Notes under the pieces: generated by a model
The model's input: the letters and a program-made list of their open reading frames with translations, nothing else
The model's database searches: none
What the model was told of the DNA's origin: nothing
Part shown: in pieces, positions 18,107 to 25,929 of the stretch
Layout of the letters: every line of letters begins with the position of its first letter
Position numbering within the stretch: the stretch's first letter is position 1
Virus record (IMG/VR): IMGVR_UViG_2671180921_000027
Span: 1 to 26,168 of that record
Reading direction: 5' to 3' (one strand)
Length of the DNA stretch: 26,168 nucleotides
From: a virus
Taxonomy: Duplodnaviria > Heunggongvirae > Uroviricota > Caudoviricetes
Translations under genes and position numbers: made by a program

Positions 18107-18703
18107 TCACCCCCGCGTGGCGGACATGATGCCTAGAGGGGTATCGATGATTTCCAGACAGGCGTCGGTCAGCTTTTCCATGCGGTTAAACCAGCCGTTC
18201 AGGTATTTACCCTGGGCGGGTTTTGACTTGATGATGTCGGCATAAAAGCGGGAACGACGGACAATGCAGCGGGCCAGCAACCAGTCCGGGGTGGACAGAC
18301 TCACGGCCTTACGGGTACGTGGGCCGATGATGCCGTCAGCATCCACATCAGCGGCTTCCTGCAAAATTTTGATGGCTTTTTTAACGCCATGCTGAACCGC
18401 TGCATCGAACACAAACATCGCCACGCCATCAGGCCACTGGTCACATCCGGCAGGCAGCCAGTAATCGCGCCAGTAAATCTGCGCAACCTGTTCGCGGGTT
18501 AAATCCTTAATGCGGGTATCCGGTTTGCCGTCGCCGTTGACATCGGTTTTGCCGTCAATCACACCGTCGCGGCGGTCAGAAATGCCGTATTTGGTTTCGC
18601 CGCCACGGTCAGAGGGGTCATTGACATAGACGCCTTCGATATCGGGACGCAGAATGAAATTCAGCGCATGTTCAAAGGCCGGGGAGAGTTTTTGATTTTC
18701 CAT
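18107..18703 (-). CDS. Endolysin, GH108-type muramidase with C-terminal peptidoglycan-binding region
   Basis: GGETKYGIS motif near N-terminus; AGGTG RBS 5 nt upstream of ATG at 18703. Confidence 0.7.
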   Translation of the reverse strand: MENQKLSPAFEHALNFILRPDIEGVYVNDPSDRGGETKYGISDRRDGVIDGKTDVNGDGKPDTRIKDLTREQVAQIYWRDYWLPAGCDQWPDGVAMFVFDAAVQHGVKKAIKILQEAADVDADGIIGPRTRKAVSLSTPDWLLARCIVRRSRFYADIIKSKPAQGKYLNGWFNRMEKLTDACLEIIDTPLGIMSATRG

Positions 18704-18788: not shown

Positions 18789-19238
18789 TTAAGGGCGGCG
18801 TGGCGGACGACGAACGGGGTGAGGCAGGTTCGGGGAGTGGTAGAACAAATCCGGCTGGTATTTATTACGCTCCAGACGTCGCATCCGTTTGATGGCCTTG
18901 TAGACGGTTTTATACGTCACTCCGTAACGCTGAACCAGTTCAGGAATATTATGGCCGTTAAAATCACGCCAGATACGCATATCCCGGACAAGATTCTCCA
19001 GAATATTCCCCCTCGGAACATAAACCTGCATCCCGCCGATATGGCGACAAATCGCCACAACCAGCTCAAGGGAATGGGCAGGGTCTGCGCCAATCCGGGC
19101 CAGCTCTTTACGCAGCAGTGCGTTCAGTTCAGAAAGTAACGCCGGATAAGCGGTGTTTTCCTGGTAATCGTTAAGGTATTCCAGAACGCTGTCGTCCCGA
19201 AGGTCTTCGAATAAATCCTGCTCTTTCATCTGTTTCAT
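18789..19238 (-). CDS. mor: Mor/C-family transcriptional activator
   Basis: 149-aa ORF; ATGA coupling to GemA-like gene; sequence resembles remembered Mor (FPALLxELNxLLRxEL...DPAHSLE..VAIC). Confidence 0.7.
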   Translation of the reverse strand: MKQMKEQDLFEDLRDDSVLEYLNDYQENTAYPALLSELNALLRKELARIGADPAHSLELVVAICRHIGGMQVYVPRGNILENLVRDMRIWRDFNGHNIPELVQRYGVTYKTVYKAIKRMRRLERNKYQPDLFYHSPNLPHPVRRPPRRP

Positions 19239-19786
19239 ACAGCAATTCTCCCGCTGTTTCGTGCGCGGGCATATGCACTGGTCAGTGCATCATATCCGCG
19301 CAGTTCCCGCCCGGATGGGCTTACAGGTAAAGGCACACCATGTCGGGCAAAGGCTTCCCGGATGCAGCGCATATGCCACTGTTTGAGCGTTTCGAGCACA
19401 ACCTGCAACGATTCCCCGTGACACCAGGCCAGTGTGGAAACACCCTGACCGCCATTACGTCTGGCCGTCAGGCGCTCAACGTATTTGTCCAGCGCGGCGT
19501 CGCTGGTATCGGAGACGAAACCATCAAGAAACATCTGTTGCCAGATTTTATAAATCTTCTCGCGCGGTGTGACATGCCCCTTAAAGCGACGGCGGGGATG
19601 TTTTTTCTGCTTCTTAAAACCGCGCTCTTTCATGGCATCGAGCACACGTTCCAGTTGTGCAACGGACAGCTCGCGGCAACTGGTCTTGCCCGTGCACTGC
19701 ACCAGAAAGGCGCGGTAAGTGTCATCGTCGAGTTGTAGATCACGACGGGCGACATGAATTAACTTAATAAGCGATGTGCGACTCAT
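19235..19786 (-). CDS. gemA: GemA-like protein (Mu gp16 family)
   Basis: Start refined to ATG 19786 with GAGAGGTGA RBS; LIKLIHVARRDLQLDDDTYRAFLVQCTGKTSC matches remembered GemA motif. Confidence 0.65.
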   Translation of the reverse strand: MSRTSLIKLIHVARRDLQLDDDTYRAFLVQCTGKTSCRELSVAQLERVLDAMKERGFKKQKKHPRRRFKGHVTPREKIYKIWQQMFLDGFVSDTSDAALDKYVERLTARRNGGQGVSTLAWCHGESLQVVLETLKQWHMRCIREAFARHGVPLPVSPSGRELRGYDALTSAYARARNSGRIAV

Positions 19787-19816
19787 TTTGTCACCTCTCA
19801 TATTAAGGAATGAGAT

Positions 19817-20221
19817 ATGAAAATTGATTACGATGAACTGGCAAGAATCCTTGATACTTTTCTGAATGCAGACAGCGCATTTATTACCCTTAAGGATGTT
19901 GGAATCGACACAACCGACGATGAAGATAAACTGATATTTCATTTATTACTGCTCGTCGAAAATGGTCTTATCGGTAACAGAGAACTGCAAACTGGCACCC
20001 CGGAGTGCATCGGTCTGAAGTTCACCACAACAGGTATTGGCTGGCGAAACATACCAATAAGGCTGACTCAGGACGGACATGATTTTGCCAATGCATTGCA
20101 TCAAAAACCTATTCTTGAACGAATCAAAAAAGAATTTGCCGAAGCCCCGTTTGATGTTGTCAAAGACCTCGGCAAGGGGTTTTTAACTCAGTTATTTAAA
20201 AAGAAACTCGGTATTGAATAA
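19817..20221 (+). CDS. Hypothetical protein, possibly DUF2513-like; AT-rich opposite-strand gene
   Basis: 134-aa ORF, the only convincing plus-strand gene; ATG 19817 after AAGGAA; 22 G+C in first 60 nt by hand count; RLTQDGHDFANAL resembles a remembered DUF2513 motif (unverified). Confidence 0.6.
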   Translation: MKIDYDELARILDTFLNADSAFITLKDVGIDTTDDEDKLIFHLLLLVENGLIGNRELQTGTPECIGLKFTTTGIGWRNIPIRLTQDGHDFANALHQKPILERIKKEFAEAPFDVVKDLGKGFLTQLFKKKLGIE

Positions 20222-20494
20222 CTCCTTACTCATTCGCTGTAGCACATCAAGGGCGGCAACTGCTGCCACTTTATCCTGACCGGCAATGATTTTTCGTAAT
20301 TCCTCAATAATCCAGGCATGGCTTAATGATTCAGCAATCATCGTGCGCTTTTCTGAAATTAAATTTTCTCTGGCCTGCTCATAGTGCTGGTATACGACAT
20401 TATCCAGAAAATCATTTACATTTTGTTCTGGCATGCCACTGGAAATTAAGGTTGCAGCCATTAAATCAGCATCAGTAATCATCTGTATTTTCAT
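20192..20494 (-). CDS. Hypothetical protein, AT-rich, convergent with and overlapping 19817..20221 by 30 nt
   Basis: 100-aa ORF; GAGGAGGT RBS 9 nt upstream of ATG at 20494; 22 G+C in first 60 nt by hand count. Confidence 0.55.
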   Translation of the reverse strand: MKIQMITDADLMAATLISSGMPEQNVNDFLDNVVYQHYEQARENLISEKRTMIAESLSHAWIIEELRKIIAGQDKVAAVAALDVLQRMSKELFNTEFLFK

Positions 20495-20554
20495 TTCTTA
20501 ATACCTCCTCGCAATAAAAAACTTCATTCGGATGGCGTTTCTGCATGTGCTCCA

Positions 20555-20668
20555 TCACCTGCATACATGCCTGCTCTGTGGGCCAGATTTTTCTGTCACC
20601 GGAATGGCATCACAGGCATCATTCCCACAGGTGCCAACCAGCAGGACAAAGCCAATTGACTTAATCAC
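20555..20668 (-). CDS. Candidate small ORF (37 aa) with hydrophobic N-terminus and near-lipobox LVGTC
   Basis: Hand translation MIKSIGFVLLVGTCGNDACDAIPVTEKSGPQSRHVCR from GTG 20668 with GGAG 7 nt upstream; below ORF-track size cut-off. Confidence 0.2.
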   Translation of the reverse strand: MIKSIGFVLLVGTCGNDACDAIPVTEKSGPQSRHVCR

Positions 20669-20945
20669 CGTTCGTCTCCATTTGTTCCAGGCGCTGCGCT
20701 TCGCGCATACACAGCTGCGCAATCATCATCTGGCGGGTAATGCCTGCACGAATAAACGAAGCTGCACGACGGAGATTTTTTGCATTCGCCTGTTGAATCA
20801 ATGCAGGCACTGATGCCAGACATTCGGCGCTGTCTTTAATCAGCGTTGCTGCTGTTATTTCTGTTTTTTGTCGTTCACTCTTTGTGGTCATAAACATCAC
20901 CATTTCAGATTCAGGCGCGAGCAATCCCCTGACGCATCGCGCCAT
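20661..20945 (-). CDS. Hypothetical early protein; start uncertain (possibly ATG at 20891)
   Basis: 94-aa ORF without RBS at first ATG; internal ATG with GGTGA upstream. Confidence 0.45.
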   Translation of the reverse strand: MARCVRGLLAPESEMVMFMTTKSERQKTEITAATLIKDSAECLASVPALIQQANAKNLRRAASFIRAGITRQMMIAQLCMREAQRLEQMETNGD

Positions 20946-20985
20946 AATTAAAAGAAAGTGAATTAATTAAATATTCGTAGTGGTA

Positions 20986-21510
20986 TTAAATACCGGCTTC
21001 CTGTTCAAACGGAATAATGGAAAAATCTTCAATTCCAGACTTAACTGTAATTCCGGCAACACCTGCTACCGCTTTCGGTTCCAGTAAAATTGCTTCCTTG
21101 TTGATTTCCTGTTTCGTGCGAATAAAGCGTTGCAGACCAAGACGCTCCAGCGTTTCCATCACCGCATCCACACCGCGAATACTTACCGATGGTGGGCGCT
21201 GACGCCATGACACATCGCCGGTTACCAGGTTCGCCGTCTTCACCTTGCCGCCGTTCGTCAGTTCGTCACGGTTCGCTTCACACCATCCCTGAACGCCTTT
21301 TGAAAGGGTTTCAATACTGGTTTTAAGCGGCGCAATCTGTGAGGCGTATTTCTCAGTAATTTCAGCGATAGCGTCATTCATTTCCGTTTCAAGTCGTGCT
21401 GCTTCGCGTTGCAGGTCCCCAATCCGGCGGATATCACATACCACGGCATCGCGGGATTGCGGAACATAAGCCGCTGCGGCGTTCTTGATTCGTTTTGCTG
21501 GTTTAGCCAT
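20986..21510 (-). CDS. gam: Gam-like host-nuclease inhibitor (Mu Gam family)
   Basis: 174 aa, MAKPAKRIK...RIGDLQREA...; length and sequence closely match remembered Mu Gam. Confidence 0.8.
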   Translation of the reverse strand: MAKPAKRIKNAAAAYVPQSRDAVVCDIRRIGDLQREAARLETEMNDAIAEITEKYASQIAPLKTSIETLSKGVQGWCEANRDELTNGGKVKTANLVTGDVSWRQRPPSVSIRGVDAVMETLERLGLQRFIRTKQEINKEAILLEPKAVAGVAGITVKSGIEDFSIIPFEQEAGI

Positions 21511-22812: not shown

Positions 22813-23766
22813 TTACTGCCAGTTCAGTAACTTAGGGTTGCTGTAAGCCTCCTTAAAAGCCGCTTTAATGTGACTTTTATTCAGGGATGAACCAGCACCT
22901 TTCGCCGCCAGCCACGCATGATTCAGTGTGTGAGTTAATACACGCAATCCCCCGGGCTTTTCGGCTACCCTCATCAACAGGTCCAGCTCATCTTCCTGTG
23001 TTACTCCCCATGCTTTGGCTACAGCCATCACGTCGGTTTTTTTCACTTTGCGCAGTTGTTTCGTCATGGCAAAACGGCTGAACAGACGGGCCAGCTCATC
23101 AGTCCCACGACGGGTGGCATCCGCCATCTGTTTCGGGTTGCCAATTAAAACCATCCCCACGCCAGTGGCATCCTGAATGGCGCGTAATTGCTCCAGACCA
23201 TCCACACTTAAGTGATCAGCTTCATCAATAATCAGCAGGGGGTTAACACGGCCACTAATTTCTTTACCACCGCCCAGTTTTCTGCGAATGGCGCGGGTTA
23301 TATTCCCCTTATTTCTTCCCGGATTATTAATTTCCAGCGCATATGCTATTTCAAGGAGACATTCCGTAACGCTCGAATGTGCCGGAGCAAGCGTCACCAT
23401 CCAGGCATTAGCTGTTTTGCGGCAATATTCCCGTGCAGCAAAAGTTTTGCCGACACCCGGTACGCCAACAACAACACTAATAATCCCGAGTGAGCGCACT
23501 GTTTTAAACAGCTCATGCAAATCACAAAATGTCTGGGTCTTCACAACGCCGGGGGCACCTGACAAATTCTGCCCTTTTTGCCAGACCCGATACCATTCCT
23601 GTAATTTGTCATGCATGCCTTCAACATTGCCTCTGTACTTTCCTTTACGAAGATCAGAAAGTGTTGCCGGAGACATTCCGGCCTCATCAGCAATATCTTC
23701 CTGGGACTTGTCGCCCTCGTTAATCAAAGCGTTAATAGTGTTGAAAACATCATCAATATCAGTCAT
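22813..23766 (-). CDS. B: MuB-type transposition target-capture ATPase
   Basis: 317 aa; Walker A GVPGVGKT; N-terminal HTH-like segment; GGAGGAG RBS 5 nt upstream of ATG 23766. Confidence 0.85.
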   Translation of the reverse strand: MTDIDDVFNTINALINEGDKSQEDIADEAGMSPATLSDLRKGKYRGNVEGMHDKLQEWYRVWQKGQNLSGAPGVVKTQTFCDLHELFKTVRSLGIISVVVGVPGVGKTFAAREYCRKTANAWMVTLAPAHSSVTECLLEIAYALEINNPGRNKGNITRAIRRKLGGGKEISGRVNPLLIIDEADHLSVDGLEQLRAIQDATGVGMVLIGNPKQMADATRRGTDELARLFSRFAMTKQLRKVKKTDVMAVAKAWGVTQEDELDLLMRVAEKPGGLRVLTHTLNHAWLAAKGAGSSLNKSHIKAAFKEAYSNPKLLNWQ

Positions 23767-23841: not shown

Positions 23842-25929
23842 TCAGGCCAGCGGATCATCTTCTTCCTGCATGGCAAAAAGCTTTTGCATCCCCAGTCTGA
23901 AATCGCGTTCAAATTCTTCGTCATGCTCTTCTTCATATTCCGGTTGCTGAACTGCCACCACATTCCCAACCGGGCGATAAACATTATCCAGCCAGGGTTC
24001 AGCTTGTTTGTGCTCCAGAATCTGAATACCTTCATCTTCAGCATCACGAATTTTTTCCTCAGCGCGTTTGCGCATTCCTTTAATACGCTGTTGCTGTTTG
24101 TGATATTCCGCACTGACAGGGAAGGCTGCGCGTTTATTGCCGTTCCATATCGCCTCACAGATAAAGCTGCCGTCCTTGCGACGTACCGTAATTCGCTCGG
24201 CGTCATGAATGTCATAACTGATAAGCACTTTGCGACCGTGTTCGTCACGCAACTCCGGCGCGTAGTAAATATTGTTCAGCCACTGGATTTCGCAGCGTCT
24301 TACTGGACGCTCCACCATCGGGCGGAACATGTCGCGCAGCTCAAGATCACTCAGCCACTCAATTTCGGTGTCTTCTTCTGCCAGGCGTTTTTTTCTGAAC
24401 TCTGCCGGGCTGTAATGCCGCCCGTTCGGTTTCATCGGCAGCTCAGAATGAGGGCGGTTGTTGTACCATTCCACGCCTTCACGAATAGCCTCAATAAGCT
24501 CCGCCCACGATGGCAGCTCGCGCATTGCCGCTTTCTGGCGGTCGTTCAGAGGCTTGTCCTGTTGCATGGCGTTAAACGCTGAACGCAGATCACGGTTAAG
24601 TACACGCAACGATTCCCGGTCAGCACCCTTGCCAAAATAGGTGCGATACCTCCTGGCTATACGCATCGGCAGTGTCCGGTTCAGGCGTTCAATAATGCCG
24701 CGCCCCTGTGGATTACCGGCAATACCTGTTGGGTGTTTAATCCCCAGGCGGGGCAGAATACCCACGACCTCTTTGTCCAGCATGTCAGCCGTTTCACCAG
24801 AACCGTTATCCGAGTAATACAGAAACGGTTTTCCGTGGTTGCGAATGCCGTGCTGTATCGCACCGGCAACGGCGAACACGTTCTCGGCAAGGTCAAGACT
24901 CCAGCCAACAACAAACCGGGTTCCACCGTCGATCACAAATGTGACTTCCGGTGAGAATGGACGCCCGTGGATCGGATGTGCACATTTCAGCTTCATACCG
25001 TGACCGTCACCAATCCAGACATAATTCACCGGCATAGCTGTCCAGGCGCGGCGGGTGAATCCTTCAAGCTGACGGTATTCACTGCCGGTAACGCGCCCTT
25101 TTTGTTTCACCACTTCCGGCAGTTTTTTCATGGCATACCGGACAACATCATAGGAAGGCATCACCTCCAGCATGTACGGTTCGTCCGCATGACGACGCTG
25201 CCATTCCGCGACAAAATCCTCGTAGGCTTCAGACATAGGTCTGCCGTTCACCTGGCGATACTGCGCCAGAAACTCAGGTAGCCAGCTAATTTGTTCCGGT
25301 TTTATTTCGTCGCGTTTTCCTGGTGCCAGTAACAGCAGCCGTTCTGCGGCATTCTGTGACTGGTTGTATTTCAGCACCCACTGATAAAGCGGGTCACGAC
25401 TGATGGTGCGATTAGCGCCACGTTTTGCATTGGCGTTAACTGCGGCCTGTTGCAGGCGTTCCGGTAGTTCACCTTTACGGGCTTTTTCGACAAGATAGTT
25501 AATGGCTTTCAGCCGCCCGAGATTACCGTCGCTTTCCAGCTTCAGCACTTCCACCACCAGCGCAGCCCTTGCTTCAGATACCCGACGCTGATTTTCGGTC
25601 AGCGCATTCAGGCGTTCTTCCATCAGTTGTGGCGAACCGCGATATGCTTCGATTGCCTGGACAGCATCAGGATTACGCGCCTTCCTGGTAACGACCTGAA
25701 CTTCGGAAACGTTGTTCTCCGTAGCTACCAGTTGTTCCACATAACGTTCACGCAGCGCCTTTTGAGTCGCTTCCGGCAGACAATCAATGTGGTACTCAAT
25801 GGCTTTTGTACCTGCTCGTTTGCGTCGAAAATGCTCTGATGAGGCCAATTTTTTTATAGTGTACCTCACACCTTGCGCACTTCCCGGCATACCAGGCAGC
25901 CCCACGAGTTCGTTGACAGACACAAACAT
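23842..25929 (-). CDS. A: MuA-type DDE transposase
   Basis: 695 aa; candidate catalytic residues in VWIGDGH, YYSDNGSGE and GIIERLNRT; directly follows ner. Confidence 0.9.
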   Translation of the reverse strand: MFVSVNELVGLPGMPGSAQGVRYTIKKLASSEHFRRKRAGTKAIEYHIDCLPEATQKALRERYVEQLVATENNVSEVQVVTRKARNPDAVQAIEAYRGSPQLMEERLNALTENQRRVSEARAALVVEVLKLESDGNLGRLKAINYLVEKARKGELPERLQQAAVNANAKRGANRTISRDPLYQWVLKYNQSQNAAERLLLLAPGKRDEIKPEQISWLPEFLAQYRQVNGRPMSEAYEDFVAEWQRRHADEPYMLEVMPSYDVVRYAMKKLPEVVKQKGRVTGSEYRQLEGFTRRAWTAMPVNYVWIGDGHGMKLKCAHPIHGRPFSPEVTFVIDGGTRFVVGWSLDLAENVFAVAGAIQHGIRNHGKPFLYYSDNGSGETADMLDKEVVGILPRLGIKHPTGIAGNPQGRGIIERLNRTLPMRIARRYRTYFGKGADRESLRVLNRDLRSAFNAMQQDKPLNDRQKAAMRELPSWAELIEAIREGVEWYNNRPHSELPMKPNGRHYSPAEFRKKRLAEEDTEIEWLSDLELRDMFRPMVERPVRRCEIQWLNNIYYAPELRDEHGRKVLISYDIHDAERITVRRKDGSFICEAIWNGNKRAAFPVSAEYHKQQQRIKGMRKRAEEKIRDAEDEGIQILEHKQAEPWLDNVYRPVGNVVAVQQPEYEEEHDEEFERDFRLGMQKLFAMQEEDDPLA

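What the first reader, a model, noticed from the sequence alone, without database searches (positions are those of the whole stretch)
19787..20494. AT-rich two-gene island with an opposite-strand gene inside the early operon
Every other supported gene in the window is on the minus strand. Between the GemA-like gene and the gam side of the early region sit two convergent genes, 19817..20221 (+, 134 aa) and 20192..20494 (-, 100 aa), whose 3' ends overlap by 30 nt. Both are clearly AT-richer than the flanking GC-rich backbone (22 G+C in the first 60 nt of each by hand count), which suggests acquisition as a unit. The plus-strand gene is antisense to early transcription, the usual arrangement for a lysogen-expressed moron, so this is the most plausible place for a defense, exclusion, toxin-antitoxin or anti-defense function. 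The 134-aa protein may belong to DUF2513 (RLTQDGHDFANAL); that is recollection, not a search result. The 3' overlap would allow antisense interplay between the two transcripts.
Basis: partly seen in the sequence, partly recalled or inferred. Interest (0 to 1): 0.7.

Follow-up and report, generated by a model that had tools for sequence, protein, structure and literature searches.

The report
Swappable reverse-strand gene in Mu-like prophage
One small gene of unknown function, with a winged-helix fold, sits backwards in the early operon of a Mu-like prophage, in the slot where phage Mu keeps its own backwards gene (gp15); its supposed partner is an ordinary backbone gene, so this is a routine accessory-gene swap, not a new two-gene system.

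Summary
19817-20221 (+, 134 aa) and 20192-20494 (-, 100 aa) are real genes under purifying selection. Their 3' ends overlap by 30 nt. They are the most AT-rich genes in the window, and the + gene is the only credible plus-strand gene.

The "two-gene island acquired as a unit" reading does not hold.
- The 100-aa gene (phrog_1988) is a backbone early gene. In close relatives it abuts and overlaps gemA with nothing between them.
- The + gene is a ~407-nt present/absent cassette (19787-20193).
- Phage Mu has the same architecture: gp14, then gp15 on the opposite strand, then GemA.
- In 44 related loci, 29 carry a reverse-strand gene in this slot: 10 of this type and 19 gp15-like.

The + protein belongs to a divergent DUF2513-like family (phrog_585). 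It is a stand-alone, acidic, winged-helix protein with C-terminal helices. It also occurs without the 100-aa partner in other prophage accessory sites.

It gave no match to known defence models, and I found no recognisable promoter. Expression in the lysogen is inferred from the architecture only.

Verdict: a new member of a known kind (a moron-type accessory gene in a known variable slot). Function is unknown and interest is modest.

The parts
19817..20221 (+). Accessory gene for a 134-aa acidic winged-helix protein of a DUF2513-like family (phrog_585); the only plus-strand gene in the window
19787..20193 (.). Present/absent cassette of about 407 nt; related 'empty' phages have only 12 nt (CCGGGGGACATA) here
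   Evidence: DNA alignment of the window with L015 and L002 (empty) and L010 and L003 (filled). Boundaries read from shared flanks TTTTTAAAT and ATGAG(T/C)CGCAC
19787..19816 (.). 30-nt spacer between the divergent gemA and + gene start codons. It holds both Shine-Dalgarno sites and the inverted repeat TCTCAT-N8-ATGAGA (19796-19815). From 19792 onward it is identical across all E. coli-type filled loci (19788-19791 vary)
   Evidence: The - strand RNA fold has z -2.2. The inverted repeat alone is not beyond chance
20192..20494 (-). Backbone early gene for a 100-aa acidic helical protein (phrog_1988), the neighbour on the early-operon side of the slot
20192..20221 (.). In-phase antisense overlap of the two 3' ends (LFKKKLGIE* on +, LFNTEFLFK* on -), flanked by a 10-bp inverted repeat at 20190-20199 / 20214-20223
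19235..19786 (-). gemA (Mu gp16 family), the neighbour on the gemA/mor side of the slot; true start at 19786
   Evidence: Pfam GemA E 3e-33; alignment
20252..20267 (+). Terminator-like hairpin GGCGGCAACTGCTGCC downstream of the + gene, inside the codons for the invariant AAVAA motif of the 100-aa protein; role uncertain
   Evidence: z -2.7 for 20180-20290 +; invariant motif

Best explanation
The + gene is a single-gene accessory cassette of the moron type. It occupies the one reverse-strand slot of Mu-type early regions, just before gemA in the early operon. This is the slot that holds gp15 in phage Mu. The cassette is exchanged among Mu-like prophages independently of its flanks. The 100-aa minus-strand gene is the resident backbone neighbour, not a co-acquired partner. 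Shown: the gene is real and under purifying selection, present in some relatives and absent in others, mosaic relative to its flanks, and it encodes a stand-alone winged-helix domain plus C-terminal helices. Inferred: gemA and mor lie beyond the cassette in the early operon, so early transcription from Pe must read through the whole gene in antisense. The + gene would then be expressed mainly when Pe is repressed (lysogeny) and silenced by convergent transcription after induction. Its product most likely acts as a small, possibly dimeric, winged-helix regulator or adaptor that binds nucleic acid or a protein, to the benefit of the lysogen or the prophage. The confidence of 0.7 applies to the architectural and evolutionary part of this statement. 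Lysogen-specific expression I put at about 0.45, and any specific molecular function at no more than 0.2.
Against: No sigma-70-like promoter scoring 9 of 12 or better lies upstream of 19817, and the 30-nt spacer is too short to hold one. No clean intrinsic terminator follows the gene. Expression is untested. Homologues in three other phages run in the same direction as their neighbours, so reverse orientation is not a family trait. The winged-helix domain is acidic (net -8, pI 5.2) and its presumed recognition helix is hydrophobic (FHLLLLVENG), which is atypical for a DNA-binding repressor. In most Mu-like lineages examined the cassette converges on a phrog_1988-type gene, so some functional link to that gene is not excluded.
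Confidence: 0.7

Rival explanations
1. The two convergent genes form a functional module, such as a toxin/antidote, exclusion or defence pair. They would travel together and regulate each other through their overlapping 3' ends.
For: In Mu-like phages the + gene usually converges on and overlaps a phrog_1988-type gene: the window, the E. coli SE11 type, Citrobacter L020 (phrog_1988 E 1e-21) and Edwardsiella L005 (E 5e-9). Kluyvera L029 gives a weak match (E 0.005; hhalign 76%), and there the pair sits on the mor side of gemA rather than on the gam side. The overlap encodes conserved C-termini of both proteins. Both genes are AT-rich.
Against: phrog_1988 genes are common without the + gene: 7 loci where one abuts gemA, plus copies ahead of gp14/gp15 in Mu-type loci. 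The + gene occurs without phrog_1988 in the Yersinia lambdoid prophage, in Pantoea L021, in three phage genomes and in marine gammaproteobacteria that share no conserved neighbour. Divergence of the two genes is discordant. They are convergent, not co-transcribed. PADLOC found nothing for either. Neither protein looks like a toxin.
Confidence: 0.13
2. The + protein regulates the phage itself. It would bind the conserved spacer and inverted repeat between its own start and the gemA start, autoregulate, and gate transcription or translation into gemA and mor, so setting the early-to-middle switch.
For: The fold is winged-helix with a PadR/MarR-like C-terminal helix. The spacer from 19792 through the first codons is identical in loci whose + genes are only 63-73% identical in protein. 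It contains TCTCAT-N8-ATGAGA overlapping both Shine-Dalgarno sites. The - strand RNA fold across it has z -2.2.
Against: The spacer is not conserved in Edwardsiella, Citrobacter, Kluyvera or Yersinia homologue loci. A 6-bp inverted repeat is not beyond chance: 44 of 100 shuffles gave a match at <= 2 mismatches, and there is no second copy in the window. The domain is acidic. Relatives lacking the cassette still carry gemA and mor in the same order. Homologues live in phages that are not Mu-like.
Confidence: 0.12
3. The + ORF is a chance open frame on the antisense strand of early-operon sequence and is not a gene.
For: No promoter was found. It is the only + ORF. The longest - strand ORF (19235-19942) overlaps its first 126 nt.
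Against: dN/dS is 0.06-0.17 with dS above 1.6. The frame stays open in homologues down to 32% identity across many genera. The AlphaFold model is confident. The Shine-Dalgarno site is good. The overlapping - strand extension of GemA is absent from homologues.
Confidence: 0.02

Closest known systems
Phage Mu gp14 / gp15 (Mup15) / gp16 GemA arrangement
   Same: Same slot directly before gemA in the early operon. One small gene on the strand opposite the early operon, converging on and overlapping the 3' end of a ~100-aa early gene (62 nt in Mu, 30 nt here). Function unknown in both.
   Different: No detectable homology. gp15 is phrog_8747 and gp14 is phrog_6075, against phrog_585 and phrog_1988 here. 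hhalign of the two reverse-gene families gives 16% probability over a 14-residue motif only. The Mu spacer is 70 nt with a GC hairpin; here it is 30 nt without one.
Morons of temperate phages, as defined for lambdoid phages (definition as quoted in PMC4378225)
   Same: A single gene inserted between two genes that are adjacent in related phages. Lower GC than its neighbours. Found in accessory sites of unrelated prophages. Orientation allows expression independent of the operon.
   Different: The defining flanking promoter and terminator were not found. Expression from the repressed prophage is untested. The adjacent backbone gene is equally AT-rich, so composition does not single out the cassette.
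Pfam DUF2513 (PF10711) and phrog_585
   Same: Full-length match to phrog_585 (E 2e-23). 17 of 19 relatives hit DUF2513, and NCBI names relatives DUF2513 domain-containing.
   Different: The window protein scores 18.9 bits against a 29.6-bit gathering cutoff. This clade carries an extra C-terminal helical region (residues 97-131) beyond the 100-position Pfam model. The family has no described function.
PadR / MarR / HxlR / TubR winged-helix DNA-binding proteins
   Different: No significant sequence match to any solved structure (best E 0.21, a ubiquitin variant). The domain is acidic and the recognition helix hydrophobic. No operator was identified. DNA binding is untested.
Opposite-strand overlapping exclusion genes in the transposable Pseudomonas phage Fc02 (PMC9936078)
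   Same: A transposable phage of the Mu lifestyle in which genes on the strand opposite the early operon are transcribed in the lysogen and overlap an early-operon gene. Both partners affected superinfection.
   Different: Different location (next to the repressor), different proteins, extensive rather than 3'-end overlap. Expression and phenotype were shown experimentally there and not here.

Membership tests
Pfam DUF2513 (PF10711) | Whole-protein score at or above the gathering cutoff (29.6 bits) | tested here: not met
   18.9 bits, E 0.002, residues 29-109 against profile positions 29-96 of 100
Pfam DUF2513 (PF10711) | Homology to proteins that are accepted members | tested here: met
   Relatives at 51-66% identity carry PF10711 in the precomputed annotation and are named DUF2513 by NCBI. 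17 of 19 aligned relatives hit at E <= 0.01, best 3e-6
PHROG phrog_585 (+ gene) and phrog_1988 (- gene) | Significant full-length match to the family profile | tested here: met
   phrog_585 E 2.2e-23 over 1-133 of 134 aa; phrog_1988 E 2.1e-41 over 1-100 of 100 aa
Moron (accessory transcription unit of temperate phages) | Present between two genes that are adjacent in closely related phages | tested here: met
   Empty sites in L002, L004 and L015-L018 and in 7 IMG/VR loci have phrog_1988 overlapping gemA
Moron (accessory transcription unit of temperate phages) | Nucleotide composition differs from neighbouring genes | tested here: inconclusive
   GC is 0.405 against 0.545 for GemA, but the backbone neighbour phrog_1988 is 0.386 and stays at 0.41-0.42 in empty-site phages
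Moron (accessory transcription unit of temperate phages) | Own promoter and terminator flanking the gene | tested here: not met
   No promoter-like site upstream of 19817 at 9 of 12 or better. Only a weak terminator-like hairpin at 20252-20267 inside the neighbour's coding sequence. Counts were no higher than in shuffles
Moron (accessory transcription unit of temperate phages) | Expressed from the repressed prophage | not testable with these tools
   Needs strand-specific RNA-seq or reporter fusions in a lysogen
Winged-helix transcription factor (PadR/MarR type) | Winged-helix fold | tested here: met
Winged-helix transcription factor (PadR/MarR type) | Basic or polar DNA-recognition surface, and sequence-specific DNA binding | tested here: inconclusive
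   Residues 1-96 have net charge -8 and pI is 5.2. The helix at the recognition position reads KLIFHLLLLVENG. Binding itself is not testable here
Two-gene toxin-antitoxin or defence system | Obligate co-occurrence, co-transcription, and a match to known defence or TA models | tested here: not met
   Each gene occurs without the other. They are convergent, not an operon. No PADLOC hit at E <= 1
Mu gp15 family (phrog_8747) | Sequence homology to Mu gp15 | tested here: not met
   BLASTP E 1.7. hhalign probability 16%. The position and orientation are the same

The most novel reading that the evidence does not exclude
The reverse-strand slot before gemA is a dedicated hotspot in Mu-type phages for lysogen-expressed genes that act on superinfection or host defence. 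It would be comparable to the P2/P4 defence hotspots. Its occupants, Mu gp15-like proteins and this DUF2513-like winged-helix protein, would be alternative single-gene effectors that are switched off by convergent early transcription on induction. The DUF2513-like protein would then be a new kind of small winged-helix exclusion or anti-defence factor.
Probability: 0.15. Interest if true: 0.65.

Novelty: new member of a known kind. Interest (0 to 1): 0.3.

Why it matters
This corrects the picture from a novel two-gene island to one exchangeable gene in a slot that phage Mu itself has. It maps the cassette boundaries to within a few bases. It also shows that at least two unrelated protein families (Mu gp15-like and DUF2513-like) alternate in that slot.

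The function of Mu gp15 was not described in any paper I could find, so the slot gives a compact and testable set of candidates for lysogen-expressed functions in transposable phages.

The DUF2513-like family is small (370 clusters at 50% identity), consists almost entirely of stand-alone proteins, is associated with mobile elements and has no described function. A phenotype for any member would annotate the whole family. As it stands, this is ordinary phage mosaicism and not a new mechanism.

Tried and rejected
1. Known defence models: PADLOC found nothing for either protein or for the Mu/Tongde slot proteins.
2. NCBIfam gave only noise.
3. Sequence search of solved structures gave no significant hit; the best was a ubiquitin variant at E 0.21.
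4. The viral fold library gave only one weak hit, to an uncharacterised protein.
5. The afdb50 fold library was unavailable.
7. I looked for a conserved neighbour of distant homologues that might reveal a system. All-against-all BLAST of 38 neighbours found no shared family.
8. I looked for domain fusions in the 1.84-billion-protein library. Almost all hits are stand-alone; two giant proteins matched only a 35-residue stretch repeatedly, and I discounted them.
9. I tested whether Mu gp15-like proteins and DUF2513-like proteins are homologous because of a shared L-V-E-N-G-L-I-like motif. hhalign gave 16% probability, so I rejected this.
10. The promoter scan and a manual reading of 19700-19816 found nothing convincing. 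gemA 5' sequences of filled and empty sites show no promoter specific to filled sites.
11. The inverted repeat in the spacer is not statistically remarkable and has no second copy.
12. Rfam found no RNA family in 19000-21200.
13. Literature searches for DUF2513, PF10711, Mup15 and Mu gp14/gp15 found nothing on function.

Full report
**Setting.** The window is a Mu-type prophage with all genes on the minus strand.
- MuA is at 23842-25929 and MuB at 22813-23766.
- Gam is at 20986-21510 and GemA at 19235-19786.
- Mor is at 18789-19238 and a GH108 lysozyme at 18107-18703, followed by the late genes.
- The Gam region is 88-91% identical to Mu, D108 and SfMu.

**Observation.** The two ORFs, their coordinates, the 30-nt 3' overlap and the 22 of 60 G+C counts are all correct.
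- GC is 0.405 for the + gene and 0.386 for the - gene. The neighbouring early genes are 0.50-0.55 and the late genes 0.53-0.59.
- No other plus-strand ORF stands free of a longer minus-strand gene.
- Both are real genes. dN/dS is 0.06-0.17. Both match a PHROG family over their full length. The + protein gives a confident AlphaFold model with pLDDT 89.5.
- GemA starts at 19786, so the divergent start codons are only 30 nt apart.

**The minus-strand gene is backbone.** Its closest relatives are 84-95% identical (P0030 and the genes in L002, L004 and L015-L018). They lie directly ahead of gemA and overlap its start, with no opposite-strand gene between them.
- The DNA alignment places the difference precisely. 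The sequences are shared up to TTTTTAAAT (window 20194) and again from the gemA ATG (19786).
- Between these points the window has about 407 nt and the empty sites have 12 nt.
- The phrog_1988 gene is just as AT-rich in empty-site phages, at 0.41-0.42. Shared AT-richness is therefore no evidence that the two genes arrived together.

**The slot is a Mu feature.** Phage Mu has gp14 (100 aa, early strand), gp15 (88 aa, opposite strand, 62-nt 3' overlap) and then gp16 GemA. Yersinia phage Tongde has the same arrangement. Mu gp14 and gp15 are unrelated to the window pair.

I surveyed 44 IMG/VR loci whose GemA is at least 79% identical to the window's. The set is not dereplicated. L048, L072 and L074 were classed by their identical BLAST hit pattern and were not inspected ORF by ORF.

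| What lies directly before gemA | Loci |
|---|---|
| phrog_1988 gene plus this DUF2513-like reverse gene | 10 |
| Mu gp14 plus gp15 | 14 |
| gp14-like gene plus a divergent gp15-like reverse ORF | 5 |
| No reverse gene | 15 |

- The 15 loci without a reverse gene include 7 where phrog_1988 abuts gemA, 5 where a 129/140-aa protein abuts it, two others (L081, L087), and one with a gp15 remnant (L077).
- Among 5,426 complete E. coli genomes, 74 match the flanking region but only 5 carry a cassette of this clade, all at about 70% nucleotide identity.

**The cassette moves on its own.**
- A 52%-identical homologue sits on the opposite strand inside a lambdoid tail operon, between tail genes K and I, in Yersinia enterocolitica. 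No phrog_1988 gene is present there.
- In Kluyvera the gene lies between gemA and mor. In a metagenome-assembled Enterobacteriaceae contig it sits next to mor. In Pantoea it sits near a gemA-like gene with no detectable phrog_1988 gene.
- Three phage genomes carry it in the same direction as its neighbours, at classic accessory sites: ahead of xis/int, and between the lysis and terminase genes.
- Distant homologues (32-45% identical; mostly marine gammaproteobacteria, plus Kluyvera, an Enterobacteriaceae MAG and a Sulfurimonas MAG) share no conserved neighbour. One lies in a type I restriction locus next to an AAA_13 ATPase, and one lies next to a Tn3 transposase.
- Divergence is mosaic. Against L062 the + gene is 98% identical in nucleotides, while phrog_1988 is 89% and gemA 93%. 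Against L010 the figures are 73%, 87% and 81%.

**A caveat in favour of a link.** In most Mu-like lineages examined, the + gene converges on a phrog_1988-type gene. These are two E. coli types, Citrobacter, Edwardsiella (C-terminus only) and, weakly, Kluyvera. In Kluyvera the pair sits on the other side of gemA. The overlap encodes conserved C-termini of both proteins. Empty sites still keep 21 of 27 nt of the + gene's 3' end. This is my own reading of the alignment, and it hints that some empty sites arose by deletion. I therefore keep a functional pair as a minority rival.

**The protein.**
- The most conserved blocks are FHLLLLVENGLI and IRLTQDGHDFANAL. From general knowledge of PadR/MarR proteins, I read these as the helix-3/strand-2 motif and the wing-strand/helix-4 motif.
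- The domain is acidic, with net charge -8 and pI 5.2. The helix at the recognition position is hydrophobic. DNA binding is therefore not assured.
- The family has 370 clusters at 50% identity, and almost all members are stand-alone proteins of 125-150 aa.
- Pfam DUF2513 is below threshold for this protein (18.9 against 29.6 bits), but 17 of 19 relatives hit at E <= 0.01.
- I found no literature on function.

**How it most likely works.**
- Shown: the architecture, the present/absent state of the cassette, purifying selection and the fold.
- Inferred from the known Mu early operon (Pe through mor): early transcription must cross the entire + gene in antisense to reach gemA and mor. Plus-strand expression should therefore be possible mainly while Pe is repressed, and should be shut down by convergent transcription after induction.
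- Weak points: no promoter scoring 9 of 12 or better lies ahead of the gene. Only a weak terminator-like hairpin follows it, at 20252-20267, inside the codons for the neighbour's invariant AAVAA motif.
- The spacer from 19792 through the first four codons is identical in all E. coli-type filled loci, although their coding sequences have diverged with dS above 1.6. It holds both Shine-Dalgarno sites and a 6-bp inverted repeat. The repeat alone is not beyond chance, and the spacer is not conserved in other genera.

**Verdict.** This is a new member of a known kind: an accessory, moron-type gene in the known reverse-strand slot of Mu-type phages. It encodes an uncharacterised DUF2513-like winged-helix protein. 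There is no evidence for defence, exclusion or toxin-antitoxin function. Interest is modest.

Noticed in passing
window 20475-20668 (-): The apparent 166-nt gap between orf94 and the 100-aa gene holds a small gene with a hydrophobic, signal-peptide-like N-terminus ending in Cys (VIKSIGFVLLVGTCGND...). It is homologous to a 65-aa phrog_16556 protein. In the window it is split across two frames by a 1-nt shorter A-run (GAAAAATCTGG against GAAAAAATCTGG in L015, near 20590), and it starts with GTG instead of ATG. This could be a pseudogene, a sequencing error or a slippage site.
   Followed up: partly
window 19787-19942 (-): The 235-aa ORF 19235-19942 is a spurious N-terminal extension of GemA that overlaps the + gene. 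All homologues and the Pfam model start at the ATG at 19786.
   Followed up: yes
window 20192-20221; L015 about 3290-3320: The C-termini of the two proteins are encoded by the same 30 nt in phase on opposite strands, and each is conserved where the other gene is absent. Empty-site phages keep 21 of 27 nt of the + gene's 3' end, which reads F-K-N-stop. This suggests that some empty sites are deletions rather than never-filled sites. The direction of change is unresolved.
   Followed up: partly
L019 (phage Mu) 4164-4233; L020 3930-4000: The 70-nt spacer between Mu gp15 and gemA contains a conserved GC hairpin, GGCGGTG-N6-CACCGCC. In Citrobacter L020 a similar hairpin is followed by T8 on the early strand. 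That looks like an intrinsic terminator just ahead of the gemA Shine-Dalgarno site. The window's 30-nt spacer lacks it.
   Followed up: no
L006-L009 about 750-5000 (Yersinia enterocolitica lambdoid prophage): An accessory island of about 3.6 kb lies between tail genes K and I. It holds the DUF2513-like gene on the opposite strand, a 115-aa TonB_C / Rz-like-spanin-family gene with a clean terminator (CCCGCCGAGTGCGGG followed by T6), and four ORFs with no Pfam hit.
   Followed up: no
L038 31-6730 (Thiopseudomonas MAG): A distant DUF2513-like gene sits between a type I restriction HsdR plus YgjP-like peptidase and an AAA_13 ATPase. This is a defence-island type of context, seen in a single case.
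   Followed up: no
L047 2195-2437, L071 2072-2431, L073 2188-2511 (all -): Divergent reverse-strand ORFs (80-119 aa) in the gp15 slot share with Mu gp15, and loosely with the DUF2513-like family, an L-(I/V)-K-L-(V/I)-E-(N/K)-G-(V/I)-I type motif. Profile comparison does not support homology (probability 16%).
   Followed up: partly
L068, L075-L080, L085, L086 (for example L075 1619-1915): Many Mu-type loci carry a phrog_1988-like gene (40-43% identical to the window's) immediately ahead of gp14/gp15. phrog_1988 is thus a widespread early-region family, independent of what fills the reverse slot.
   Followed up: partly
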